A stretch of 64,000 nt of DNA, from positions 1,612,001 to 1,676,000 of the forward strand of contig OX597833.1 in NCBI GenBank assembly GCA_951406725.2, given 5' to 3'. The notes beneath the pieces were generated by a model. It made no database searches. It was given only the letters and a program-made list of their open reading frames with translations, and was not told the DNA's origin. Shown piece by piece: positions 2,554-64,000 of the stretch; the stretch's first letter is position 1; every line of letters starts with the position of its first letter. The translations under genes were made by a program, and so were the position numbers. This stretch comes from Octopus vulgaris. Its lineage: Eukaryota.

Positions 2554-2730
2554 TAGGTGGGGGAGAGTTCATGAAAAAACAAAAGACGAAGACACGTGGT
2601 GTAGATGTATTTTGTATAACGCTCAGGAATAGAAAAAGTCTTTTACGTTTCGAGCCTACGCTCTTCTACAGAAAGGGACACCGAAAAAAACAAGGAGAGA
2701 AAAAATGTGTGTAGTGGCTACGGATCTATC
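2554..2730 (-). mobile_element. PLE pseudo-LTR-like element (family D2) with minimal hammerhead-like motif
   Basis: Minus strand reads cttt-CTGTAGA-a-gagc-gtag-gctc-GAAA-c-GTA-aaag; homologous to 24935-25125 and 26262-26428; flanked by TA-rich repeats. Confidence 0.7.
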
Positions 2731-4183: not shown

Positions 4184-4715
4184 TTATTGAGCGACCCTAT
4201 ATATATATATATTCATAAAACAATGCGAACGCATTGATATATATATATAATATGCTTCCCTATATATGCTCTGTATAATATACCTAGTAACTCTACTAAA
4301 TACTGTCATAAACTAACCACGATGCTGGAAGCGAGTGGATAATAGTAATCAGCGTGGGTCGCTAGGTCATGCACAAAAAGATCATTTGCCTAATTGTACA
4401 CAGCCATTTCAGTCGCCGTACTATCTTCTGGTTCATCCTCAGTGTTCCCTTCAAACAAACGCACATCTCTTAAGAAACATTAAATCCTCCAAACTAATTA
4501 TTCTGTCTAGTGCCGGGAAATAATTTATCCTCTAGTTAGTACTGAAGGATTATAAACGCTTGTAGGGTCCCTAATGTATATATTACTTTTACATATTGGT
4601 GCAATATATATAAAACAACTGGTGATACAGTTCTATATCTAAGAGATAAGGAATTATGTACATTATTTACATTATTTACATTTCACGGATATCTGTCCTC
4701 ATCTCGTTTGTTGTT

Positions 4716-4761
4716 AACACAACGTTTCGGCTGATATACCCTCCAGCCTTCTTCAGGTGTC
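4716..4761 (-). ncRNA. Type I minimal hammerhead ribozyme motif
   Basis: gacac-CTGAAGA-a-ggctg-gagggtatat-cagcc-GAAA-c-GTT-gtgtt: helix I and helix II pair fully, core intact, helix III is a loopless palindrome. Confidence 0.8.
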
Positions 4762-4857
4762 TTGGGGAAATTTCGAACCTGGGTTCTCATTCCTAAGGTA
4801 TTTTTTGATATTATTATTATTATTATTACTATTATTATTATTATTATTATTGTTGTT

Positions 4858-4932
4858 CAGGTCACTGCTTGGAATCGAACTCGGAATCTTGGGGTTAGTA
4901 GTCCGCGCTCTTAACCACTACGCCATATGCCC
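4858..4932 (-). promoter_or_regulatory. tRNA-derived Pol III head (A and B boxes)
   Basis: Minus strand has A box tggcgtagtggt and B box gagttcgattcc at tRNA-like spacing; no intact acceptor stem. Confidence 0.8.
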
Positions 4933-6557
4933 GTGGACATATGTCGTAGTGGTTAATTGGTTCTTCAGGTGTCTTCCTCAAGACACCTGAAGAAATTCGG
5001 AGGGTATATCAGCTGAAATGTTGTGTTAACAACAAACAAGATGAGGACAAATATCCGTCGAAGTAAATAATGTAAGTAATGTAAATAATGTAATTAACTG
5101 GTGACTTTTCAATTAAAATAAGTATCAGATTCAAACCTAACTAAACTGGCAGAGGTATTTAAAAAACACGTGATGTACTGTACTGCATCGAATAAAGGCG
5201 TATACACCAGCAGGCAAAATCCTCGTGAATGTCCATGCTTTCATTTAGTATGAACCCAATTCCACAGTCGCCTCTAAACGTAAAAGCACAGAAAAGTTTT
5301 TCGCTCAAACTCATGAAATATAAACCAAGCAACATCAAGAATGTAAGACTATAACATGCGTGAATAGTGAAAGGGGGGATCAGCTTTGAACGAGATCAAT
5401 TAGTCGTTCCCATCGACATTAGTTCTCGATTAGTGTTTTATTTTAAGTACAAGGCATGAATGAAAAGTAAATTTAACCACGGAAGAATTTGAAAGAGTAA
5501 AGAACTGCAATATATATCACCATAATTATTTCCTAATGTTTAACGATTGTGTCTATCCTGCGCCCTTCATCCATTAATAGTTAAAAACACATTCATAAAT
5601 TGAACACAAAATTTAACAGATATATGAAAGCAATTGCTGCTCTCTCTGAAAGCGTTTGCCTAATCAACGGTGACTGCTATAAAAATACACTCAGCCAACG
5701 ATACGTCTTATGAAAGAATATTGATTATATTGGGGAGTGGGATGACTACAAATCAATTTAAAAACATACTCTGTTGACATTCTTATACATTTTGAACTTT
5801 ACAAAGTGGAATTGACAAAGCGAGATCAATAAATTTCCGGGTTATAAAAAATAAAAATACACACTGCATTATGAAATGGTGATTCTTAAATGAAAGAGTA
5901 GATTGTTCATAATCAAGTGCTTTCTGTCGAATTTGCACGCTAGGAAATTTATCAATCTTGAATTTTGAATCACTAATCCTAAAACATTGAATAAACATAT
6001 AGAATGAATTTGATTATGCCTCCATGCAAGGAGAAATCTCATTGAATCCAATAACCGCATTCGATCAGTTACAACAACGGCAAAAAAACAAAGAATATCT
6101 AAAAATAAAAACACAAGTGTTTCTCTTCCCACGTCAAATGTATTTAATGTTGTAATTCTTAATAATGTCATAGTGACTCGCCATACATTGCTGTCTTGGC
6201 AGAATTCTTAGAATGAATATACGAATTCAATAAACCGCATTATTCATTTCCGAAATAGCTCGCCTTTATATGAAGGTGACCTATTTTTTGTCACAAAGGG
6301 AAGCATTTGACTTTTAACTTTTTTCTATTTTTACACCCACACATGTCATTGCCATCGGGCTATTTTTATCAGACAAACACACTCATTCAGCTCGACATTC
6401 ACACATATGAAACCGTTTAAAATTTTTCACAGACACATACCTACACACTGACACAAATATAGAAATACACAGAGGCGGGAATGGAAACGTTTAAACTAAT
6501 ACCGAGACATGAAACAAGAATAAACGCAACAGTCAGTGAGTACATATATGCTAAACC

Positions 6558-6944
6558 GTGGAGGCGCAATGGCCCAGTGGTTAGGGCAGCGGACTCGCGG
6601 TCATAGGATCGCGATTTCGATTCCCAGACCGGGCGTTGTGAGTGTTTATTGAGCAAAAACACCTAAAGCTCCACGATGCTGCGGCAGGGGATGGTGGTGA
6701 TCCCTGCTGTACTCTTTCACCACAACTTTCTCTCACTCTTACTTCCTGTTTCTGTTGTACCTGTATTTCAAGGGGCCGGCCTTGTCACTCTCTGTGTCAC
6801 GCTGAATATCCCCGAGAACTACGTTAAGGCTACACGTGTCTGTGGAGTACTCAGCCACTTACACGTTAATTTCACGAGCAGGCTGTTCCGTTGATTCGGA
6901 TCAACCGGAACCCTCGTCGTCGTAACCGACGGAGTGCTTCCCCC
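6558..6944 (+). mobile_element. Family B tRNA(Arg)-like SINE, full length, tail type 1
   Basis: A box tggcccagtggt, B box tttcgattccc, TCG in the anticodon-like loop; 13-bp TSD tatatgctaaacc at 6545-6557 and 6945-6957. Probably an octopus OR-type SINE (not verified). Confidence 0.9.
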
Positions 6945-7479: not shown

Positions 7480-7690
7480 AAAAAAAAATAGTACTTGAAA
7501 ACAAAGGTAGAGTAATGCGCTTTTTTTTTATTACAAAAACATCACAGAAAACTGTTACTCTGAGGTTCGCATTTCCGTTCGTCGGACAACTGTGATGAAG
7601 ACTCTTGATCACAGTTTTCCGGTGAATGGAAACGTGAAACTCAGAGTAACAATTTTAGTGAGGTGCCTTGCAACTTTAATAAAAAGTGTA
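7480..7690. mobile_element. Inverted-repeat PLE-like fragment with degenerate hammerhead motifs in both arms
   Basis: Arms 7541-7596 and 7608-7661 are reverse complements; homologue at 11453-11570. Confidence 0.6.
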
Positions 7691-8174: not shown

Positions 8175-8178
<4 letters not shown>

Positions 8179-8253
8179 AGATCTCAGTAAAACCACAGCA
8201 CTTGAAAGGCAAACACAGCCTTTCAAGTGCTGTGGTTTTACTGAGATCTCCCT
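8175..8253. repeat. Perfect 36-bp inverted repeat with 7-nt loop
   Basis: agggagatctcagtaaaaccacagcacttgaaaggc / aaacaca / exact reverse complement. Confidence 0.95.
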
Positions 8254-9057: not shown

Positions 9058-9559
9058 CTAATGTTCTTTTTTAAAAAAATGGGCTATTACAATATCACAA
9101 AGGGTTAGGCTAGGCTACTGGACTACATCTACAACATCTCTGATGTATAATTTCCGCCAACCTTGGGCGCAGGGGGGTGAGGTTAAAGCTATTTTGGGGT
9201 ATGAAAAATGTGTCTAATAGGCAATCAAACACAGTATATATATATTGTATACGCGTGGAAATGGCGGTTACAACGGAACGCTTTCGTTAAGAAAAGAGAA
9301 ACACGTCTGAGTTTGTCGTAGGTTACACTATACGTTGTTGAATCTCCTCCAGAAATTCTCACTGAGGATATTCAAAATTCAATGGTTTTGTATATGGAAT
9401 TCTATATCTGAAATTAAGGAATTGTGTATGGAAACAGCTGTAGGTTGGAATTTCTTTGTATAATTTGAATGACTTTAGATAAAACCATCTGCCTGAATTT
9501 TCTTTCCCTTTTCTTATTTTAAAAATTATATATATATTTATATATATATGGTCTTTCAA

Positions 9560-9770
9560 TATGTGACCTAGTGAGTACCGCTGCCGATTTTTTTCCCTCT
9601 GTCTTCCCTTCTCGGGATCTTTCCTTCTCCTATGTTTCCGACGAAGAGTTCCGCTCGAAACGTTAAACCCTCCTTCTTCCCTTCTTTCCTGAGCGTCCAA
9701 TAATACTTTATTTGTTCCACGTCCTCGCGTTCCTGTGTTTGTTTGTTTTTCTGTGTTTTCTTGTTTGGAT

Positions 9771-9776
<6 letters not shown>
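9560..9776 (+). mobile_element. PLE pseudo-LTR-like element (family D1) with hammerhead-like motif at 9634-9668
   Basis: gttt-CCGACGA-a-gagt-tcc-gctc-GAAA-c-GTT-aaac; ends ttgtttggattaac followed by (TA)n. Confidence 0.75.
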
Positions 9777-9833
<57 letters not shown>

Positions 9834-11093: not shown

Positions 11094-11188
11094 GATATAT
11101 ATATTTTCACTTCCCGAGCGTTATACTAATACATGTTTGTTGTCTACACCACCTGTCTTCGTCTTTGGTTTTTGTTTTGTGAATTCTC

Positions 11189-11261
<73 letters not shown>

Positions 11262-11828: not shown

Positions 11829-12217
11829 TTTTTTTTGGAAGCACTCCGTCGGTTACGACGGCGAGGGTTCCGGTTGATCCGATCAACGGAACAGCCTGCT
11901 CGTGAAATTAACGTGTAAGTGGCTGAGCACTCCACAGACACGTGTACCCTTAACGTAGTTCTCGGGGATATTCAGCGTGACACAGAGAGTGACAAGGCCG
12001 GCCCCTTGAAATACAGGTACAACAGAAACAGGAAGTAAGAGTGAGAGAAAGTTGTGGTGAAAGAGTACAGCAGGGAACACCACCATCCCCTGCCGGAGCC
12101 TCGTGGAGCTTTAGGTGTTTTCGCTCAATAAACACTCACAACGCGCGGTCTGGGAATTGAAACCGCGATCCTATGACCGCGAGTCCGCTGCCCTAACCAC
12201 TGGGCCATTGCGCCTCC
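11829..12217 (-). mobile_element. Family B SINE, full length, tail type 1
   Basis: Reverse complement of 6558-6944; short poly(A); TSD aat(g/a)gccacgt at 11818-11828 and 12218-12228. Confidence 0.9.
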
Positions 12218-12369
12218 AATAGCCACGTAGAAGGTTGACAGATGCAACGAAATCACTTTCACAAGCAAAAACGAAAGGATCGGATAATTAGGAAATTAGT
12301 TGAAAGGATCCAGTATGAGTGCTTATTATATTGACATAGTGGCTCTCCCTAGACACAGTAAGATTATAT

Positions 12370-12762: not shown

Positions 12763-12955
12763 AAGTTAATCCAAACAAGAAAGCACAAAAAAAAAACACA
12801 ACAACGCGAGGACGTGGAACAAATATAGTATTATTGGACGCTCAGGAACGAAGGAGGATTTAACGTTTCGAGCGGAGCTCTTCGTCGGAAACATAGGAGA
12901 AGGAAAGATCCAGAGAAGGGAAGACAGAGGAAAAAAAAATCGCCAACGGTACACA
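12763..12955 (-). mobile_element. Family D1 hammerhead-bearing element (core 12859-12892)
   Basis: Reverse complement of 9560-9776; abuts (TA)n. Confidence 0.75.
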
Positions 12956-13122
12956 CGTATGTATAAGTATAACTCGTAATCAAGATAGCAATCCTATCCT
13001 CTCTCTGTCAAACACATAGTTTACAGTAAAGGACGAGACAAGTACCGCACATCAGACGATATAGTGCAAGGAAACAAAGATGTATTTGGAACTAAATTAT
13101 TCGTAGCAGTTCTTGCTTTTCT

Positions 13123-21279: not shown

Positions 21280-21737
21280 GGAGAGAGAGAGAATAAGAGA
21301 GAAATAACCGCTTTCATTCTCTCCGACTAGAAGTTACAAATAATATAAAATCTGTACCGAATTTTCCTCCTTCGATCAGGCCATAAAGAATGCACTTTTC
21401 TTTTATTCTGTTTCTAGCAGTGTGTTTTCTATACACGTGGTCCTTTGAGGAGGTTTGGCTGCTATTTCTAACAAACAGTCCTTATATACAAACGCTCTCA
21501 ATAACAGTAACACCCGACTTGTGTAGGAAATTTGTTATGTCCTGTGGCAATCGATGTGCAGGGGAGATCTCTAACAAACGTCTGCAAACATCATACTAAG
21601 TGTATTTAGTTCATATTTACATATCTTTCGATTAATATTACAGTTTTGAATTAATTGAAGCATCTTGGGGTTTGATCGTTCTCTCATTTTGCACATGTGA
21701 CATCCAGACGAAACTAGTTCTACGGTTATTAATATTT

Positions 21738-22150
21738 AGGCGCAGGAGTGGCTGTGTGGTAAGTAGCTTGCTTACCAACCACATGGTTCCGGGTTCAGTC
21801 CCACTGCGTGGCACCTTGACCAAGTGTCTTCTACTATAACCTTGGGCCGACCAAAGCCAAGTGAGTGGATTTGGTAGACGGAAACTGAAAGAAGCCCGTC
21901 GCATATATGTATATATATATATGTGTGTGCGCGCGTATGTTTGGGTGTCTGTGTTTGTCCCGCTTACATCGCTTGACAACCGATGCTGGTGTGCTTATGT
22001 CCCCGTGACTTAGCGGATCGGCAAAAGAGACCGATAGAATAAGTACTAGGCTAACAAAGAATAAGTCCCGGGGTCGAGTTGCTCGACTAAAGGCGGTGCT
22101 CCAGCATGGCCGCAGTCAACTGACTGAAACAAGTAAAAGAGTAAAAGAGT
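21738..22150 (+). mobile_element. Family A tRNA-derived SINE, full length
   Basis: A-box-like tggctgtgtggt, B box ggttcagtccc, internal TA/TG microsatellite, 3' tail ggcggtgctccagcatggccgcagtcaactgactgaaac ending in (gtaaaaga)n. Confidence 0.9.
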
Positions 22151-22362
22151 ATTTATTAAGACCATTGCACAAACTTAGATTTTTCACAGAATTTAGCAAA
22201 TGGTTGATCGTATTTTTGAAACCAATTGCGAATTTGCACGTTTACAAGCTTTTCCGAAATTAAAAAAAAATATAAATCATTCTCCTTTTTTGTTCGCTAC
22301 TCTATGTGTATATACATATAGATACATACATACATACATATATGCATGTATGTGTGAGAACG

Positions 22363-22562
22363 TGTGTACCGTTGGCGATTTTTTTCCCTCCGTCTTCCCT
22401 TCTTTGGATCTTTCCTTTTCCTATGTTTCTGACGAAGAGCTCCGCTCGAAACGTTAAATCCTCCTTCTTTCTTTCCTTTCCTGAGCGTCCAATAATACTG
22501 TACTTGTTCCTCGTCCTCGCGTTGTTGTGTTTTCTCTTTGTGTTTTCATGTTTAGATTAACT
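22363..22562 (+). mobile_element. Family D1 hammerhead-bearing element (core 22425-22459)
   Basis: gttt-CTGACGA-a-gagc-tcc-gctc-GAAA-c-GTT-aaat; canonical CUGAnGA core. Confidence 0.8.
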
Positions 22563-22972
22563 TTATATATACACACATACATTCATACGTTCTCACACAT
22601 ACACACATATATATATATATATATACACACATATTTATCTATATGATTTAGGTGTGTATACATATGCTCATAATCTATTTCTGTCTATTATGTATTATTC
22701 GTTCTGTGTGTGTGTGTGTGTGTGTGTATGTGTTTGTATATGTATGTGTTTGTGTGTGCACGCGTATATGAGTGTATACGAAGAAAACAAGAAACAGAAA
22801 TGTTTAAGGAGCTAAGCGACTAGACTCTTCATGTATCGATATTGAACACTAATTGAGAAGGTTTTCCTTGCTAAAACTTTCAATGATGGAAATTTGATTC
22901 TCGTTATATTCATGTTATGCTATTAGTGCGAGATGTTATTTCGCATTTTCACATTCATGTATATATACACAC

Positions 22973-24934: not shown

Positions 24935-25125
24935 CCACTACACACATTTTTTTATCTCTCCTTGTTTCTCTGTTGCTTTTTTATTTCTGTGTCCTTTTCT
25001 GTAGCAGAGCGTAGGCTCGAAACGTAAAAGACTTTTTCGATTCCTGAGCGTTATACTAATACATCTGTTTGCTTTGTACACCACCTGTCTTCGTCTTTTG
25101 TTGCTTTTTTTCGTAAGCTCTCCCT
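24935..25125 (+). mobile_element. Family D2 element (hammerhead-like core 24991-25032)
   Basis: Homologous to 2554-2730; ends ctctccc followed by (TA)n. Confidence 0.7.
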
Positions 25126-26263: not shown

Positions 26264-26422
26264 CGGGGAGGTTTACGAAAATAAACAAAAGACGAAGGCA
26301 GGTGGAGTACAAACAAGCAAATGTATTAGTATGGCGCTTAGGAATAGAAATAGAACAAGTCTTTTACGTTTCGAGCCTACGCTCTTCGGCAGAAAGACAC
26401 ACAGAAAAGAAACCAGGAGAGA

Positions 26423-26428
<6 letters not shown>
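26262..26428 (-). mobile_element. Family D2 element (hammerhead-like core 26359-26398)
   Basis: gtcttt-CTGCCGA-a-gagc-gtag-gctc-GAAA-c-GTA-aaagac; 6-bp helix I; (TA)n on both sides. Confidence 0.7.
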
Positions 26429-31581: not shown

Positions 31582-31790
31582 GTAATCCAAACATGAAAAC
31601 ACAAAGAGAAAATACAACAACGCGAGGACGTGGAACACGTGTAGTGTTATTGGACGCTCAGGAAAGGAAAGGAAAGAAGGAGGATTTAACGTTTCGAGCG
31701 GAGCTCTTCGTCAGAAACATAGGAAAAGGATCGATCCAAGGAAGGGAAGACGGGGGAAGAAATCGCTAACGATTCACACGCGGTCACATT
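31578..31790 (-). mobile_element. Family D1 element (hammerhead core 31684-31718)
   Basis: CTGACGA core; abuts (TA)n. Confidence 0.8.
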
Positions 31791-32024
31791 TTGAATGACC
31801 GGAAGTCCTAGGCTTCGGTAGGCAATGCAAAGGAGAAAAGCGTCTGCGAATATACCAACTCCACTGACCTGTAATCTTTATACTTGCAACATCTGTGGCT
31901 TTCTTTACAAATCGGCAGCGCGACTTAAATGTCTCATTCGACATAAGCATTATGACTGACAAAGAAAGGTACCATGTCGGAGTCTCATGTCGAAACTGAC
32001 AGGAGAGCACGTTATATATATATA

Positions 32025-32218
32025 TGACCTCGTGTGTACAGTTGGCGATTTTTTTCCTCTGTCTTCCCTTCTCGGGATCTTTCCGACGAAGAGCTCCGCT
32101 CGAAACGTTAGACCCTCCTTCTTTCCTTCTTTCCTGAGCGTCCAATAATACTTTATTTGTTCCACGTCCTCGCGTTGTTGTGATTTTTTGTTTTTTTTGT
32201 GTTTTCTTGTTTGGATTA

Positions 32219-32222
<4 letters not shown>
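32025..32222 (+). mobile_element. Family D1 element (hammerhead core about 32078-32113)
   Basis: CCGACGA core; inverted partner of 31578-31790; abuts (TA)n. Confidence 0.75.
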
Positions 32223-34860: not shown

Positions 34861-35856
34861 GGGGGGTGCGTGTGTGTATGTATGTATATATATCATATAT
34901 ATATATATGTGTGTATATATATATGTGTAAATATATATGATTAATAATAAATTCTCGTATATTCCTTCTTCCGTCTTCCATTTGTCATATATATATATAT
35001 ATAAGTTACAAACAATTCGGCAGATTAAACTACTTAGCTATGTGTCTAAACATGGTCTGCATTTAGACCAGGAAATAAACCTAAATATGTAAGTGACAGC
35101 AAAGAATCTGACACAATCAATACATGAACAGATCGTACATTTATTAAGCGGCATATATCTCTGTTGAGCAAAGAAACATCAACGAACTCAAATGATATGC
35201 TTCATGTAGCAACGGCATCTCTCAAAAGAGGTAATATTGACTCAGTCCTAACTAACAGGATTATTTGAAAGACATCAAGAAAGATACAATATGGCCGCCT
35301 GTCCGGATCACAATTGCAAATAATACACTATATACATTAAACAAAATGTCTGCCATTTGTAAAGGAAATTCCGAATATAGAGACCAAGGATATTGGTTGT
35401 GTATAGATGCTTGACTAGGATTTTGTATGAGATAAAATCTCAATCGTATTGTCAAAAAGAAGCGTCTATTTCCGTTGAAGTAATTCGATTTCACAAATCT
35501 GTTATTAAGTATCTTTCTGGTCGAAGGAACTGGTCGTCTTTCCGGTTTGTTTGTTCCTTCTTCGTGTCACTGTTCTAATAAATACATGGAAGAACTTTGC
35601 GGAAGGGATTTAGAAGTTATCGAAGTTCTTGATACGTTAATTTGTTGCGAATATTAAACAATCTGACGGTTCTTTTTATTTGGTTCCAGTTCTCGGTCTG
35701 GCTGCGTGAAAGAGAAATAGGAATCTTTACTCGGTCAAACAAAACACAGAAACAGACTAACAGACAGACAAATAAAGAAAGGGAAAGTGATGCGACATTG
35801 AAGGAAGTGATGTGTTGAACAAAGAGTATCTGAAACATATTAAACTAGATTACAGG

Positions 35857-36067
35857 AAGGAATTATCGTACATTATTTAAATTATTTAAATTTAACGGAT
35901 ATTTGTCCTTCATCAGGTGTCTTGGGGAAATTCCGAACCTGGGTTCCTGTTTCTAAGGTATGCCCACGAGCATATGGCGTAATGGTTAAGAGCACGGGCT
36001 ACTAACCCCCAAGATTCCGAGTTCGATTCCAGGCAGTGAGCTGAATAATAATAATAATAATGATAAC

Positions 36068-36120
<53 letters not shown>
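35857..36120. mobile_element. Second copy of the palindromic tRNA-head/hammerhead element (left arm deleted internally)
   Basis: Left arm matches 4648-4800; centre tatgcccacgagcatatg; plus-strand tRNA head 35969-36044; then (AAT)n. Confidence 0.8.
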
Positions 36121-36122
<2 letters not shown>

Positions 36123-37110
36123 GACCTGATGCAGTACCAGGCAGTGGCTCTCATGGCTTCTGATCTTAACTAATTGAAGGTGTTATCATGTACATTGTTT
36201 TGTCTTGGTATAAAAGATGAGCTACAGCAAATATTCTGCTTAATACCACAGACTTGCTTGTCAGTTGTTTGACCTTAACCAGTTGAGCATGTCCCTTAGT
36301 GGCTGACGATATGTGCATCTCTGATCACGAGAAGAAGTAGTGGATGAGTATCATAGATACATACATACAATCGTATAGTTGTAGACATTAGATTGCCCAA
36401 AGGGTATAAACGTTCCTACTCGTAATCAGGCAGAAGGAGACTATTTATCGAAAAACAAAATGCTTCGAAAGGTACCACTTCTGCATCGTGATTGTAAAAT
36501 CATATTTATTCCGAGAAGCATTGGTGTAATTGTTTGTGTTGGTCAATAAAAAAGGGGGAGTCAGAAAAAATATCTTAAAACGGCCAGATTTTCAAGCAGG
36601 GAAAGAACTGCCACCATTCGCTTCGCAAATGAATACTTTTACCAATACAGTAAAAATGAGGAAGAATTTAATTCTTATCGACTTTGTCAGAAAGTTCTTC
36701 GCCGCAGGAAACCTTCAAACAATTAAAACAATAATGTACGAAAGACATGCTTACACATACATGTACACAGATACACACGAATATGTGTGTGTGTGTGTGT
36801 GTGTGTGTATGTTTGTGTGTGAGAGGGAGAGAGATAGAGAGTGTGTGTGTGTGTGTGTGTGTGTTAATGTGCATGTGTGTCTATAAGTGTGTATCTGCAT
36901 ATGTGTATATCTGTGTACGTGGGTGCATACCAGATATCAAAAGAACATTACAAAAAACAGTTTTGTTTAGAAAAATACCAAATCATCACTGTCGTCATCA
37001 TCATCATCATCATCATCTCAATGATAATTAAATATTGACGACAAATAAGACATCTAAACGACTCATTAGAATTTTAACGAAAATTAATGACTAATGATTT
37101 AGATATCATG

Positions 37111-37144
<34 letters not shown>

Positions 37145-37529
37145 AATGCATACATGTATACACAAATATATATATTTGCATTGGTAGATGTATATATGTA
37201 ATTTATTTGTTTATGTATTGTACTCCAATATATGTTTGATGTGAGATAAATTTATATGAAACTACAGATAAGACAACATAATTTATTTTTATCATGAGAA
37301 ATGGATATCTTTGATATTTTTCTAAAATCATATTTTTTCGGGAACGTGCTTCAAATAAACGTAGATTAGTCTGTGTTTGTTACTAAGTAAACCCAAACTT
37401 TAACGCAGCGGGGTCGATCTCGGAACAAGAGAATACGTATCCATCTCCTGTTCCTCACGTGCTGGATAGCGACATCGGAGTTAAAAGAAATCATGGCGAA
37501 TGACTAAATGAAAACCTATAGACACAAGT

Positions 37530-37800
37530 CTTTGAAATATAGCGGGACCCCAGTGTTCGACTAATATTTATTTTGCCGACCCCTAAAGAATGAAAGTCAG
37601 AATAAATCTCGGCGGAATTTGAACTCAGAACGGAAATTGTATCGACACCTGTATTTGACTGGCGTTTTAGATTCTCGACCCCAATGAAAGACAAGGTTGA
37701 CCTTGGTGGACTTATATCTCAGAACGTAAAGAACTGAAAGAAATACTTCTAAGCATTTTGTTCGAGGTGCAAATGATTTTGCAAGGTCACAGTTTTATTA
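37530..37800 (-). mobile_element. Family C SINE fragments (two partial units)
   Basis: ctcggcggaatttgaactcagaacg and tcgaccccaatgaaag motifs. Confidence 0.6.
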
Positions 37801-38482
37801 CAGCTTCAAATGTTTTGAAAAGGCCACAAAATTTAGTGAGAGGGAATTAGTTCGATTTCTTCCATTGAACCGCTTCAACGACACATTATTTTATAGCCCC
37901 GAAACTAATGACATGCAAACATTATGATATAAAATGACATAAAATATAGATTGCAGATAACATTGATATAAAGGAAGAGATGAAAGCGATGAGGAGTTGA
38001 GGGTCAAAGCGACAAAGATCTAAAATTCGAAAAGTTCAAATAGCAACAGGACAGTTGATCCACATGCCTTACAAATGCATTAAAAAACAGCAGATTGAAT
38101 CGTGATGATTCATTCTTACACAATGGGACAATTGACCCAAGCATATTAGAAATAATTCTTTTATTATTTTCACATGGTACATTTCCAAATACAGCCAGGA
38201 GCAACGGATAAATCGACAGAATAACTAAGTGGATTATGAAATAAAATGGAAAGGAAAAGATGAGAGAAAAGACAAATAGGAAATCTGGAGGCTAATAAGA
38301 AATCAGCTGCATGCCGTTCATGTGATATAACACAAAGGAAAGTTGATGGAGCGCAGGAGCTAAATGCGATGCTATATTTACTTTCCGGTCAAAGAATACA
38401 ATTGCGAAATACGTTCACACAATGGCGTATATATATACGTATGTATGTGTGTGTCTGTGTACGGATGTGTGCTGTATGCATG

Positions 38483-38534
<52 letters not shown>

Positions 38535-38711
38535 GTTGTTGTCTCTTTTCCATTCTCACTAATATAGAATAACGCAGTTTAATTCGATGTTTTCTGTTTG
38601 CAATCGATGAGGCTTCAGTTAGACTGAGTATTGAAGAAAATTTATGTAAATGCATGTCCGTGGTGCTCCGATATTAACTCCAAAATACCATTAGTACCGA
38701 TATATAATAAA

Positions 38712-38749
38712 AATAACAACAACAACAACAATAATAATAATAATAATAT

Positions 38750-38819
<70 letters not shown>
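38712..38819. repeat. (AAT)n microsatellite
   Basis: Seen directly. Confidence 0.95.
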
Positions 38820-38823
38820 GACG

Positions 38824-39087
38824 GATATTACTGTCCCAGTTGATATAAACGTATCTGTCAAGACCTACCAGAAACTGAGTAAATATAAAGATCTTGAAAT
38901 AGAAATCAGCAAAATGTGGAACCTGAAGACTAAGACAGTACCTGTTGTCATAGGTGCCCTGGGAATGATAGCAAAAGGGGCTGATTGCTATCTAACTCAG
39001 ATACCAGGAAACCCCAAAATGGCAGAAATTCAAAAGGTAGTGCTCATGGGAACTGCTCATATCCTACGCAAAATACTTTGTATGTAA
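38824..39087 (+). pseudogene. 5'-truncated R4/Dong-type LINE, restriction-like endonuclease C-terminus
   Basis: Open frame DITVPVDINVSVKTYQKLSKYKDLEIEISKMWNLKTKTVPVVIGALG...IQKVVLMGTAHILRKIL*, directly after (AAT)n. Confidence 0.9.
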
Positions 39088-39220
39088 TCTCAAGTTTAAA
39101 ACTAAACATAATTTTCGTATGGTTTTTTTAGGCATTCACTAGTACAACACTAAGTACAAAACCAAATATATGGCACCCTAGGCATAACACCAACATGAAT
39201 TTCCAACTTGTTGTCTCTTG

Positions 39221-39310
39221 AACCCTCAAGCCTTCATCAGGTGTCTTGGGGAAATTTCCGACCTGGGTTCTCATTCCTAAGGTATTTTTTCGATGTTGTT
39301 GCTGTTAGTA

Positions 39311-39359
<49 letters not shown>

Positions 39360-39401
39360 TTAGGTTATTACCTGGAATCGAGCTCGGAATCTTGGGGTTA
39401 G
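39221..39401 (-). mobile_element. Third copy (one arm) of the tRNA-head/hammerhead element
   Basis: Matches 4737-4898; carries the CTGATGAAGGCT half-core and a B-box remnant. Confidence 0.8.
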
Positions 39402-39700
39402 ATGGCCCGTGTATGGAAAATTAAGAAGGCGAAGACAAGGCGAATTATTATTACATCTGTGGAGAGAGTATCAGGAGGTATCAAGAAGAATATAAAGGAA
39501 GTCGGAATAGAGTGGCCAGTAGAACTCTTACGAAAGATTTGCCTTCTCTGCCACGAGCAGAATAATCAGGGAAGTATTCGGTAGTTGAAAACTATAGAAA
39601 GCAGGCTACCGTAGGCTGCAGTGAGCAAGCTTTCTACATATGCAAGACTAAGAGTTCTAATAAAACCTGAGTTAAAAGAATGATGATAATGATAATCGTA
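39402..39700 (+). pseudogene. Degenerate R4/Dong LINE 3' end (second family)
   Basis: ARVWKIKK...NIKEVGIEWPVELLRKICLL; homologous to 49930-50215. Confidence 0.7.
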
Positions 39701-49935: not shown

Positions 49936-50215
49936 AAATAAGTACGAAATAGCCCGGCTATGGAAAATGAAGAAGGTGAAGATAGTTCCAATTATTGTTG
50001 GGTCCTTGGAAACAGAATCGGAAGAAATCGAGAGGAATATAAAGGAAATTGGAATAAAGTGACCAGCAGAACTGTTACAAAGGTTTACCTCTTTGGCACG
50101 GTCAGAAAAATCAGGAAAGCATTAGATATCTGAAAAGAATCGATAGCATGGTACTGTAGGCTGCAGGTAGTGAGCCCACTAGGCATGCAAGACTCCAGGT
50201 GCTCCAACAAAACCT
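49930..50215 (+). pseudogene. R4/Dong LINE 3' end remnant
   Basis: KYEIARLWKMKKVKIVPIIVGSL...IKEIGIK following AAT/AAG repeats. Confidence 0.8.
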
Positions 50216-50224
50216 GTGATAAAA

Positions 50225-50555
50225 GATCGTGGTTTCATTCCCAGATCGGGTGTTGTGAGTGTTTATTGAGCGAAAACACTTAAAGCTCCTCGAAGCTCCG
50301 GCAGAGGGGTGGCAACCCCTACTGTACTCTTTCACAAAAACTTTTTCTCACTCTTTCTTCCTGTTTCTGTTGTACCCGTATTTCAAAGGAACCAGCATTG
50401 TCACATTCTGTGTCATGCTGAATTGCGCCGAGAACCTACGTTAAGGGTACACGCGTCTGTGGAGTGTTCAGCCACTTGCACCTTAATTTCACGAGCGGGC
50501 TGTTCCGTTGATCGGATCACCTGGAACCCACGTCGTCGTAACTGACGGAGTGCCA
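50225..50555 (+). mobile_element. Family B SINE, 5'-truncated, tail type 1
   Basis: Matches 6605-6938. Confidence 0.85.
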
Positions 50556-54699: not shown

Positions 54700-55850
54700 A
54701 GTAAAAAAAGAGTTGCCTCTTTGGTTTGCCACTTGGTCAAAGGATGCATAGTTCATGTTTATGTTATTTGGTGTTATGACTTTCCCATAGTTCCGTTCTC
54801 GTTCTTTGGTTGTAGGAGGTGAAATGTGGTTGCATTTTGTTTTTGTTGTTGTCGTAGGTCTCCTCTGTTGCTGTTTATAGTTATTTTTCGATCGTTTTGT
54901 GCCCTTTAGATGGTGGTGGTTGCATTCTGGGTTCAAGCACATCCTTAGTGACACAGAAATTTGGCACAATTTAGAATGGAAGAAGGTGCCTCCATATTTA
55001 GTATCAGGGCCATTGACTCTGTATTTAGGACAGTATTTGGGGTGGAAGTAAGGGCAGTTTTTCCCGTTATACCATATGGACAGGTGCCCTTAACAAGTCT
55101 ACGGCATAAGGTAGGATGGAAAAAAGCACAGCGTCCCTTGTTGGTGCCGCTGGGGCCAAATCTACATTTGCCTTCAGAATGGTAACGACAAAGTTTTTGA
55201 CGTGGGCATAGTAGAGGTTTTTCTATACTCGCAAGCTCGATAGTCAGTCAGTGGTCCTATTGTAGTATCAGTAGCAGACTTGTTGTTGTTGATGTTGCTG
55301 TAGTGGCTGTGAAACTTGACTTGCAACAGTAGGGTTGGGTGGAATCAGGCCAGATAGTGGTGCCAAACAAGGTGCTGCCAATGTAGTGGCAGTAGCAGGC
55401 TGTTGTTGTGGTAGTGAGTCTTGGCTTGCCAAGGTAGTGTTGGGTGGAATTAGGTCAGATAGCGATATTAATGAGGATGCTGTTTGTTGCTGGCTAGCGG
55501 GTTGTTGAAGTGACCCCTGACCTGCTTGAGTTGGGTCAGTTGGTGCACTACATCCATTGACATGTATAGCTTCTAGTGTTGCCATGTGCGCGTGTGAATG
55601 ATGAAATGATCTTATGATTTCTTTTGTTGTTTTCGATCTGTTTTACAGATCTGTAAAAGGATTGTTTTGCTAATTTTTCAGCGATTTTTCCGTAGACATT
55701 AGCTATTACAAATTCGTTATGGTGAGTGTACCAAGCGTTTAAGAGTGCATTGATTTCGGTTCCTAGCCAGTGGCTTTTTAGAATATTATTGGCCATATTC
55801 TGTGGGACAGTATTATACAATGTGCGTCTGTTATTGATGACTTGATGTAT
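54700..55850 (-). pseudogene. LINE ORF1-like remnant with tandem CCCH zinc fingers
   Basis: 54895-55205 translates (one frameshift) to KLCRYHSEGKCRFG...RCAFFHPTLCRRLVKGTCPYG...NCPYFHPKYCPKY...FFHSKLCQIS...CLNPECNHHHLKGTKR. Confidence 0.75.
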
Positions 55851-56687: not shown

Positions 56688-58206
56688 GTCTTTTACTTGT
56701 TTCAGTCATTTGCCTGCGGACATGCTGGAGCATAGCCTTGAAGCGTTTTAGTCAGAGAAATCGATTCCAGGAATTTTTAATGCTTGGTTCTTAATCTATC
56801 GGTATCTTTTGCCGAAACGCTAAGTTACGACGGCATAAACACCGGTTGTCAAATGGTAGTGCAGAAACACAGACACAAACACCTACACACACACGCACAG
56901 AATGTATGTACGTATTTCTATACTATCCACAAGGGGCTAAACACAGAGGGGACGAACAAGGACAGACAAACTGATTAAGTCGATTACATCGACCCCAGTG
57001 CGTAACTGGTACTTAATTTATCGACCCCGAAAGGATGAATGGCTAAGTCGACCTCGGCGGAATTTGAACTCAGAACGTAGTGACAGACGAAATACCTATT
57101 TCTTTATTACCCACAAGGGGCTAAACATAGAGGGGACAAACAAGGACAGACATAGGTATTAAGTCGATTACATCGACCCCAGTGCGTAACTGGTACTTAA
57201 TTTATCGACCCCGAAAGGATGAATGGCAAAGTCGACCTCGGCGGAATTTGAACTCAGAACGTAGTGACAGACGAAATACCTATTTCTTTACTACCCACAA
57301 GGGGCTAAACACAGAGGGGACGAACAAGGACAGACAAACTGATTAAGTCGATTACATCGACCCCAGTGTGTAACTGGTACTTAATTTATCGACCCCGAAA
57401 GGATGAATGGCTAAGTCGACCTCGGCGGAATTTGAACTCGGAACGTAGCGACAGACGAAATACCTATTTCTTTACTACCCACAAGGGGCTAAACATAGAG
57501 GGGACAAACAAGGACAGACATAGGTATTAAGTCGATTACATCGACCCCAGTGCGTAACTGGTACTTAATTTATCGACCCCGAAAGGATGAATGGCAAAGT
57601 CGACCTCGGCGGAATTTGAACTCAGAACGTAGTGACAGACGAAATACCTATTTCTTTATTACCCACAAGGGGCTAAACATAGAGGGGACAAACAAGGACA
57701 GACATAGGTATTAAGTCGATTACATCGACCCCAGTGCGTAACTGGTACTTAATTTATCGACCCCGAAAGGATGAAAGGCAAAGTCGACCTCGGCGGAGTT
57801 TGAACTCAGAACGTAGCGACAGACGAAATACCTATTTCTTTATTACCCACAAGGGGCTAAACATAGAGGGGACAAACAAGGACAGACATAGGTATTAAGT
57901 CGATTACATCGACCCCAGTGCGTAACTGGTACTTAATTTATCAACCCCGAAAGGATGAATGGCAAAGGATGAATTTGAACTCAGAACGTAGCGACAGACG
58001 AAATACCGCCAAGCATTTCGTCCGACGTGCTAACGTTTCTGCCAGCTCAGGCTTCTTTGGGCTTCCATTTGCCAAATCCATTCACCAGGCTTTAGTCGGG
58101 CCGAGGCCATATTAGATGGCAGTTGCTCAAGGTGTCACACATTGCAACGAAACCCGGAACCACGTGACTGGGAAGCAAGCTTCTCGCCATACATCAACGC
58201 CTGCGC
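56688..58206 (-). mobile_element. Old family A SINE split (56688-56912 and 58049-58206) by a nested insertion
   Basis: The tail half ends at ...gtatgtacg and the head half resumes at aggcttcttt, adjacent positions in intact copies. Confidence 0.75.
56913..58048 (-). repeat. Tandem array, 6 x 184 bp, of family C SINE body plus a single head
   Basis: Unit starts at 56913, 57097, 57281, 57465, 57649 and 57833; SINE 5' head only at about 58007-58048. Confidence 0.95.
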
Positions 58207-63154: not shown

Positions 63155-63533
63155 GGCACTCCGTCGGTTACGACGACGAGGGTTCCAGTTGAACCGATCA
63201 ATGGAATAACCTGTTCGTGAAATTAACGTGCAAGTGGCCGAGCCCTCCACAGACACGCGTACATTTAGCGTGGTTCTCGGGGAGATTCAGCGTGACACAG
63301 AGCATGACAAAGCTGGTCCTTTGAAATACAGGTACGACAGAAACAGGAAGAAAGAGTGAGAGAAATTTGCGGTGAGAGTGTACAGCAGGGTTCGCCATCA
63401 CACCCTGCCAGAGCCTCGGGGTGCTTTAGGTGTTTTCGGACAATAAACACTAAGAACACCCGGTCTGGGAATCGAAACAGCGATCCTAAGACCGCGAGTC
63501 CGCTGCCGTAACTACTGAGCCATTGCGCCTCCA
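63155..63533 (-). mobile_element. Family B SINE, full length, tail type 1
   Basis: Reverse complement of 6558-6940. Confidence 0.9.
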
Positions 63534-64000
63534 CACCCTACTGTACCCCATGCTGAGTGAACAATTGCCCACATTGTTCAGCTTCTAGTATCAAATTTCT
63601 TTGACGATGTTCATTTAAGTGATGAGGAATTGTGGAGTCTTCATGTATGCAAACAAATTTATGGATCGCTCTGAACATTGACCAATTAATCCCGCAGCTG
63701 TCGATTCTGTTGCTACACCCACACCGGCTGCGCAAAGCAAAACAAATTAATAGCTTTATGAAAAAAATGCAGATTCGTTAGCCCAGAGTCAAACACACAC
63801 GTTAAAAGGATCTGATTTAGATCCGTTTACTGAATACAATTACCATCGCACTTGTACAGGGATTTCAAGGTAAATCCCTGTACGAATCTGTTATTTAATC
63901 CAAAACTTCTCTAAAACGTGTCTAGGGATAACTAGTCATGTAGTTTTTCGAGGTCCACAATGCAAGTATAAATCATGTTAATACATCCAAGTTTTTGCGA

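What the first reader, a model, noticed from the sequence alone, without database searches (positions are those of the whole stretch)
35857..36120. Independent copy confirms the head-to-head centre is a family trait
This copy has the hammerhead arm on the minus strand and a complete tRNA head on the plus strand, joined by tatgcccacgagcatatg. That is the same central hairpin as 4924-4943, with the loop in the opposite orientation (consensus catatgcccacgggcatatg). The left arm lost the GAAA half of the hammerhead, apparently by microhomology deletion (cctcatc/cttcatc). Different arms are damaged in the two copies, as expected for an unstable ancestral palindrome. A third one-arm copy at 39221-39401 has a CTGATGA core.
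Basis: partly seen in the sequence, partly recalled or inferred. Interest (0 to 1): 0.7.

Follow-up and report, generated by a model that had tools for sequence, protein, structure and literature searches.

The report
Penelope-style inverted tRNA-headed octopus retroposon
This is a small octopus jumping element that lands as two copies joined head to head, a layout already known from Penelope-like retrotransposons; the new touch is that a tRNA-type promoter pins the fold-back point to one fixed spot.

Summary
The sequence description is right. Two of two copies that keep the 5' end (A 4626-5095, B 35857-36120) have an inverted arm of the same family joined at the same 2-nt loop; 0 of 11 other tRNA-SINE heads in the window do. 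B is simply A in reverse orientation, so the SAME arm lacks the head in both. No copy is a full palindrome (fold-back 22 nt in A, 7 nt in B). Copy C lacks the centre and is uninformative. New here: A is bounded by a 9-bp direct repeat, with a 33-nt extension at one end only. Minimal type-I hammerhead, head-to-head truncated copy, junction palindrome, one-sided ~30-bp tail and 8-10-bp duplication are the published insertion signature of Penelope-like elements (PMC3846280, PMC8557442). Best reading: a one-arm Pol III RNA borrows Penelope enzymes, and the inverted unit is rebuilt at each insertion. The host is Octopus-like. No autonomous partner or outside copies could be searched. Verdict: new variant of a known kind; modest interest.

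The parts
35857..35965 (-). Copy B, inverted head-less arm: 7 nt of head, then body from arm position 132, half hammerhead, 9-nt repeats, tail remnant
35857..35868 (-). B: remnant (11-12 nt) of the 3' tail seen in full in copy A; 35851-35855 also equals the outer 5 nt of A's tail (suggestive, not tested)
35907..35909 (-). B: junction of the 50-nt deletion that removed hammerhead stem II, GAAA, cleavage site and stem I 3' strand; 3-nt exact microhomology
35910..35916 (-). B: surviving CUGAUGA half of the hammerhead core
35959..35974 (.). B: central hairpin, 7-nt arms (6 of 7 pairs) around the 2-nt loop at 35966-35967; joined to the body by 3-nt microhomology with 127 nt skipped
35968..36044 (+). 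B: tRNA-like head; A-box-like motif 35975-35985, B-box-like motif about 36020-36030
   Evidence: consensus quoted in PMC8969392
36044..36120 (+). B: (AAT)n tract; family sequence stops here and non-family sequence follows from about 36121
4617..4625 (+). Copy A: left copy of 9-bp direct repeat (candidate target-site duplication)
4626..4658 (-). A: 33-nt tail, present on the long arm only
4626..4932 (-). A: complete 307-nt arm: tRNA-like head (4932-4857), (AAT)n, body, hammerhead, 9-nt repeats, tail; no T4 run on the sense strand
4716..4761 (-). A: intact minimal type-I hammerhead (5-bp stem I, stem II, no helix III, cleavage triplet GUU)
4911..4956 (.). A: central palindrome, 22-nt arms (20 of 22 pairs) around the same 2-nt loop (4933-4934)
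4961..4994 (.). A: second fold-back, 15-nt arms around a 4-nt loop, at the 5' truncation point of the short arm
4976..5095 (+). A: short arm, 3' part of the element with broken hammerhead, one extra 9-nt unit, no tail
5096..5104 (+). A: right copy of the 9-bp direct repeat
39222..39401 (-). Copy C: internal fragment, truncated at both ends, between two non-LTR retrotransposon ORF-end fragments; no centre

Best explanation
A non-coding, tRNA-headed passenger of Penelope-like elements (PLEs). Steps: (1) Pol III makes a one-arm ~310-nt RNA from the A/B boxes, starting a few nt inside the central hairpin [inferred]. (2) A PLE RT-endonuclease recognises the pLTR-like 3' half (minimal hammerhead, 9-nt repeats, tail) and makes a staggered cut, leaving a 9-bp duplication [duplication shown in A; enzyme inferred]. 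(3) cDNA is primed at both cut ends, once from the tail start and once from the inner start, giving a full arm and a 5'-truncated inverted arm [structure shown; two-ended priming inferred by analogy with the anole PLE in vitro]. (4) Each cDNA 3' end folds back and copies itself briefly (22 and 15 nt in A, 7 nt in B), and the two ends are joined by microhomology [junctions shown; order inferred]. Because the RNA 5' end is fixed by the promoter, the fold-back centre is identical in independent insertions and rebuilds the leader for the next round. Within this model I put about 60% on two-ended priming and 40% on one cDNA snapping back over its whole length, with later loss in the copied arm. B later lost 50 nt of its hammerhead and the 3' half of its head arm.
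For: 9-bp direct repeat around both arms of A (null 85-160 of 20,000 random segment pairs) and a 33-nt one-sided tail. Rotifer Pen2a has an adjacent inverted pLTR, a 9-bp TSD and a 31-bp tail on one arm; related families have 18- and 38-bp junction palindromes; head-to-head is the most frequent arrangement (PMC3846280). An adjacent inverted 5'-truncated copy and a 30-40-bp one-sided tail are general PLE features (PMC8557442). The anole PLE cuts and extends both strands and has two RT start sites whose spacing is the tail (PMC11167929). Minimal type-I hammerhead as in PLE pLTRs (PMC4209133); descriptor hits in 0 of 100 shuffles. Same polarity in A and B. All three A segments carry A at core position 7, where B and C carry T. 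A second fold-back with a 2-nt seed sits at A's truncation point. No T4 run on the sense strand; T6 on the antisense strand. SINE promoters lie about 10-15 nt from the 5' end (PMC8969392), which puts the start 1-6 nt inside the inverted arm.
Against: Only two informative copies. No duplication partner was found for B within 36040-39300, and B's 3' half is missing, so TSD and tail rest on A alone. The TSD null (0.4-0.8%) is modest and its windows were chosen after seeing the ends. No autonomous PLE with a matching 3' end was found in the window, and none could be searched outside it. Same-side polarity has a 1-in-2 chance under the rival. The shared variant is a single site and could be gene conversion. 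The hammerhead fold energy is not unusual (z -1.09; 21 of 200 shuffles as stable). Short leaders give only weak DNA snap-back energies (-0.3 to -3.5 kcal/mol, on the mutated copies). No junction coincides with the hammerhead cleavage site. Transcription is untested.
Confidence: 0.7

Rival explanations
1. One reading: the mobile unit is an inherited full two-arm palindrome, and copies decay afterwards by deletion.
For: Neither short arm derives from the other by deletion: A keeps head 1-22, B keeps body from position 132. Both B junctions have 3-nt microhomology. The centre is the same in both copies.
Against: The same arm is head-less in both. No full palindrome in 2 of 2 copies. The one informative variant sorts by locus, not by arm. 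A's ends are asymmetric (tail on one side). An internal Pol III promoter at the centre would transcribe only one arm, and a read-through would meet T6 in a full inverted arm. A's short arm contains a fold-back inversion, not a plain deletion.
Confidence: 0.15
2. PLE-made, but by self-priming on an antisense or read-through transcript, as proposed for rotifer Penelopes, rather than by cDNA fold-back on a sense Pol III RNA.
For: Published proposal for head-to-head junction palindromes (PMC3846280 Discussion).
Against: The centre coincides with the expected Pol III start in both copies. No antisense promoter is evident. The anole PLE uses sense RNA in vitro.
Confidence: 0.07
3. A MITE or Foldback-type DNA transposon built from two SINE halves, moved by a transposase (9-bp TSD as in Mutator or Foldback; recalled).
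For: Long inverted arms and a 9-bp duplication.
Against: The inverted repeats do not abut the duplication: one end has 33 extra nt. The arms are 5'-truncated differently in the two copies.
Confidence: 0.03
4. An ordinary single-arm SINE with a short terminal hairpin; the opposite arms are unrelated neighbouring insertions, or L1-type twin priming.
For: B's hairpin alone is within background. An inverted pair of another hammerhead family in the window (31583-31800 / 32020-32220) does look like two independent insertions (77% identical).
Against: Zero-gap inverted junction in 2 of 2 copies against 0 of 11 controls; rough chance about 5e-4 per copy. One duplication encloses both arms. Twin priming (recalled) inverts without duplicating the 3' end, whereas both arms of A carry it.
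Confidence: 0.04
5. Sequencing or assembly fold-back artefact.
For: Palindromes are a known long-read artefact (recalled).
Against: A's arms differ at 11 of 85 positions, 7 of them outside a 4-nt scar; the unit is enclosed by a duplication.
Confidence: 0.01

Closest known systems
EN+ Penelope-like elements with inverted pLTRs (rotifer Pen2a_Av / Pen2_Av / Pen3a_Av, PMC3846280; general scheme in PMC8557442)
   Same: Head-to-head full plus 5'-truncated inverted copy, palindrome at the junction, ~30-bp tail on one arm, 8-10-bp TSD, microhomology deletions; hammerhead in the repeat (PMC4209133).
   Different: Here there is no ORF and no direct (tandem) pLTR. The 5' end is a tRNA-derived Pol III head, and the junction centre is the same in independent copies.
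Animal non-LTR retrozymes (bioRxiv 10.64898/2026.07.22.740005; mentioned in PMC8969392)
   Same: Short non-coding elements with a type-I hammerhead, proposed to be PLE-mobilised.
   Different: Defined as head-to-tail tandems with a hammerhead in each unit. These copies are dispersed and inverted and carry a tRNA head; the preprint's main text has 0 hits for 'tRNA' and 'promoter'.
Schistosome Sm-alpha / Sj-alpha (PMC2770079, PMC6765202)
   Same: tRNA-derived, apparently Pol III-transcribed SINE-like element with a hammerhead.
   Different: Described as often tandem, with the promoter left at the 3' end of cleaved monomers. Here the head precedes a minimal hammerhead and the copies are inverted, with a tail and TSD.
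Non-autonomous Chlamys PLEs such as MRC1 (PMC8557442)
   Same: Non-coding PLE derivatives that share 3' ends with autonomous families.
   Different: They form pLTRs and head-to-tail arrays; no tRNA head appears in the passages read; most Chlamys lack canonical hammerheads.
Octopus tRNA-derived SINEs OR1 / OR2 and the third family of Ohshima and Okada 1994
   Same: tRNA-derived retroposons of octopus.
   Different: OR1/OR2 are cited as CORE-SINEs. The original paper is not held, so identity with any of the three is unchecked.

Membership tests
Non-autonomous Penelope-like element | Type-I (minimal) hammerhead near the 3' end | tested here: met
   Intact in A's long arm; broken in A's short arm, half-deleted in B, half in C
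Non-autonomous Penelope-like element | [quoted passage not shown] | tested here: met
   2 of 2 copies with a 5' end; 0 of 11 control SINE heads, where one control gave (TA)n-only hits that were set aside
Non-autonomous Penelope-like element | 30-40-bp tail at one end of the unit | tested here: met
   33 nt in A only, defined by the duplication; B has an 11-12-nt remnant and no other end to compare
Non-autonomous Penelope-like element | Target-site duplication around the whole unit | tested here: inconclusive
   9 bp in A (null 0.4-0.8%); none found for B; C not searched
Non-autonomous Penelope-like element | 3' end shared with the pLTR of an autonomous RT/GIY-YIG element of the same genome | not testable with these tools
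   No eukaryotic genome or repeat library available; no partner in the window
Non-autonomous Penelope-like element | Hammerhead self-cleavage (as dimer or protein-assisted) | not testable with these tools
   Bench assay needed
tRNA-derived SINE | A box and B box 30-35 nt apart near the 5' end | tested here: met
   A: exact A box at arm positions 8-18, B box with one mismatch, 33 nt apart; B similar (consensus)
tRNA-derived SINE | Identifiable parent tRNA or cloverleaf | tested here: inconclusive
   ARAGORN 0; Rfam none; best phage tRNA-Gln match E=0.2; weak matches to other SINE heads, E 0.006 and worse
tRNA-derived SINE | Mobilised by a LINE through a shared 3' tail | not testable with these tools
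   The anatomy points to a PLE instead; partner not searchable
Non-LTR retrozyme | Head-to-tail tandem units, each with a hammerhead | tested here: not met
   Three dispersed loci, inverted or fragmentary
MITE / Foldback DNA transposon | Terminal inverted repeats abutting the TSD | tested here: not met
   33-nt asymmetry at one end
Octopus OR1/OR2 and related SINEs (1994) | Sequence identity with the published consensus | not testable with these tools
   Paper not held

The most novel reading that the evidence does not exclude
A true 'PLE-SINE': a Pol III retroposon carried by Penelope enzymes, whose 5' leader hairpin is self-perpetuating. Every insertion folds back at the same base, rebuilds the inverted centre, and so re-creates the leader that triggers the next fold-back. 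Many genomic copies with a fixed RNA 5' end would then record how PLE head-to-head inversions arise (sense template, two-ended priming, cDNA fold-back), which is still an open question.
Probability: 0.3. Interest if true: 0.62.

Novelty: new variant of a known kind. Interest (0 to 1): 0.4.

Why it matters
What may be new is the passenger: a tRNA-headed Pol III element with the full PLE insertion signature. I found no description of one in ten searches of the open library. Repbase, Dfam, SINEBase and subscription papers were not searchable, so it may already be catalogued. PMC8557442 calls the origin of PLE tandem/inverted structures undefined, and PMC3846280 proposed an antisense template. A family with a promoter-fixed 5' end in a genome with 6.83% Penelope-like DNA (O. 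vulgaris) would let that be tested from sequence alone. It also matters for annotation: such repeats are likely filed as unclassified SINEs.

Tried and rejected
Rfam found neither tRNA nor hammerhead at A or B; the 150 listed of 331 whole-window hits were almost all microsatellite matches to miRNA models. ARAGORN 0. The repeat finder was swamped by microsatellites. No further family copies or remains of B's 3' half by BLAST or nhmmer. No TSD partner for B. Exact-motif scans of the bacterial/archaeal genome collection, in the hope of contaminant contigs, gave 0 and 0; plasmids 0; the phage search gave no parent tRNA. The inverted pair of a second hammerhead family at 31583-32220 was considered as an internal positive control and rejected: its arms are 77% identical and carry different subfamily variants. 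Hammerhead cleavage as the cause of any junction was rejected: no breakpoint lies at the GUU site. Pfam named none of the retroelement fragments tried (4 of 5 proteins without a hit); calling the fragments beside C 'R4/Dong-like' is recalled, not tested. PMC12910113, PMC8967140 and PMC10886601 passages added nothing on this element.

Full report
SETTING. The window is AT-rich and full of microsatellites. A retroelement ORF fragment at 38821-39087 has Octopus bimaculoides proteins as its 18 best hits (best 88% identity), so the host is an octopus or close relative; the species was not determined. BLAST and nhmmer find three loci of the family and no more: A (4626-5095), B (35857-36120) and C (39222-39401).

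ANATOMY OF ONE ARM. A's minus-strand arm 4932-4626 is the only complete one (307 nt). It runs: 76-nt tRNA-like head, (AAT)n, short body, hammerhead, 9-nt repeats, 33-nt tail. The head has an exact A box at arm positions 8-18 and a one-mismatch B box 33 nt later, against the SINE consensus quoted in PMC8969392 (passages). It is not a tRNA gene: ARAGORN 0, no Rfam tRNA hit, fold z 0.40 and 0.66. A descriptor for minimal type-I hammerheads gave 4 hits in the window: this arm, two copies of an unrelated family, and one probable chance hit. It gave none in 100 shuffles. The hammerhead fold is the minimum-energy structure, though its energy is unremarkable (z -1.09). Its form (5-bp stem I, unpaired base before stem II, no helix III, palindromic 15.2-16.2) is that of PLE hammerheads (PMC4209133, parts 1-2 of 4). 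The sense strand has no T4 run; the antisense strand has T6.

CHECK OF THE FINDING. The joint is at 35959-35976; the consensus matches only A and B (0 of 100 shuffles). B's head matches A's at 70 of 76 positions. But read towards the intact head, A(-) and B(+) have the same loop orientation, and the head-less arm lies on the same side. 'Different arms are damaged' is therefore a strand effect. B's head arm ends in (AAT)n, followed by non-family sequence, and its 3' half is absent from the window. Symmetry around the loop is 22 nt in A (20 pairs) and 7 nt in B (6 pairs); the latter is within background for SINE heads. The non-random parts are the 8/9 identity of the upstream 9 nt (background 20 of 127,982) and the adjacent inverted family arm: 2 of 2 against 0 of 11 heads of two other tRNA-SINE families, after setting aside (TA)n-only hits at one control. 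C has no centre and is cut at both ends, so it says nothing.

A 9-bp direct repeat (4617-4625, 5096-5104) encloses both arms of A; random segment pairs share a 9-mer in 85-160 of 20,000 trials. It shows the inverted unit entered as one event, and it defines a 33-nt extension on the long arm only. B's short arm carries 11-12 nt of that tail; no duplication partner was found for B. A's short arm has a second fold-back (4961-4994) at its truncation point. There the opposite strand follows the reference two bases past the loop, enough to seed a 2-bp hairpin. B's centre joins the body by 3-nt microhomology with 127 nt skipped. All three A segments covering core position 7 have A; B and C have T. 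A's short arm has one more 9-nt unit than the long arm. The arms differ at 11 of 85 positions, 4 of them in one scar, which excludes a read artefact.

COMPARISON. PMC3846280 (passages and Discussion) describes rotifer Pen2a: an adjacent inverted pLTR, 9-bp TSD and 31-bp tail on one inverted pLTR. Related families have 18- and 38-bp palindromes and 8-10-bp TSDs, and head-to-head is the usual arrangement, read as self-priming on an antisense template. PMC8557442 (passages) gives the inverted 5'-truncated copy and the one-sided 30-40-bp tail as general PLE features of undefined mechanism. PMC11167929 (parts 1-2 of 4) shows that an anole PLE protein cuts and extends both DNA strands and starts RT at two sites whose spacing is the tail; hammerhead cleavage was not needed in vitro. 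tRNA head plus hammerhead is known from schistosome Sm-alpha (PMC2770079, PMC6765202, passages), and PLE-dependent non-coding elements from retrozymes (bioRxiv 10.64898/2026.07.22.740005, part 1 of 5 and passages). Both are described as tandem, not inverted. O. vulgaris has 190 Penelope-like consensus sequences and 893 recently active unclassified SINE families (PMC13282606, passages and supplement search); the term searches there showed nothing on palindromes or hammerheads. OR1/OR2 are cited as CORE-SINEs (PMC4758252, PMC4824008, passages); the 1994 paper was not available. Supplements of the other papers, including PLE consensus files, were not read and could hold this family.

MECHANISM. 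Shown: one-arm anatomy, polarity, three fold-backs, microhomology joins, and TSD and tail in A. Inferred: Pol III transcription from just inside the hairpin; capture by a PLE protein; priming from both cut ends (tail start and inner start); brief fold-back of each cDNA end; joining. This accounts for B's centre without any deletion, and for a constant centre with variable arms. Confidence 0.7 for PLE-built-per-insertion, 0.15 for an inherited palindrome.

LIMITS. Two informative copies; TSD and tail from one; no partner element; no expression data; no outside copies (searches gave none).

VERDICT. Real feature, partly misread. It works like a PLE insertion; membership is likely, but the partner test is open. 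Ten library searches returned no description of a tRNA-headed, inverted PLE passenger; repeat databases were not searchable. New variant of a known kind, interest 0.4.

Noticed in passing
window 9550-9780(+), 12763-12958(-), 22353-22563(+), 31583-31800(-), 32020-32220(+): A second, unrelated ~220-nt family with a minimal type-I hammerhead, ending in (TA)n; two copies pass the descriptor. The last two lie head to head 220 bp apart but are 77% identical, probably independent insertions.
   Followed up: partly
window 2560-2717(-), 11104-11190(+), 24935-25124(+), 26266-26426(-): A third repeat family ending in (TA)n, with a decayed hammerhead-like core and GAAACG half; no descriptor hit.
   Followed up: partly
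window 36121-36146 versus 36029-36044: The sequence after B's (AAT)n shares a 10-mer with B's head 3' end (null 27 of 4,854) and an 8-mer with A's, in swapped order. Unexplained. The stretch is single-copy in the window; I recall it as a common (AAT)n-targeting octopus repeat (untested).
   Followed up: partly
window 38821-39087 and 39402-39679 (74% to 49949-50226): Two 5'-truncated non-LTR retrotransposon ORF ends flank copy C; the first follows an (AAT)n tract. R4/Dong-like by recollection; no Pfam hit.
   Followed up: partly
window 56909-58007: Tandem array of about six 184-bp units, 87-95% alike, related to dispersed repeat fragments.
   Followed up: no
window 7548-7656 and 8176-8252: Two further self-inverted stretches (83% over 109 nt, 91% over 77 nt).
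   Followed up: no
window 54945-55247(-): ORF with a CCCH zinc-finger-like match below Pfam cut-off.
   Followed up: partly
protein P0020: A UniRef entry labelled Escherichia coli is 81% identical to the octopus retroelement fragment; probably contamination.
   Followed up: no
window 6559-6941, 11837-12218, 63156-63534, 21737-22131 and others: Two abundant tRNA-headed SINE families, used as controls; none has a same-family inverted arm at its 5' end.
   Followed up: partly
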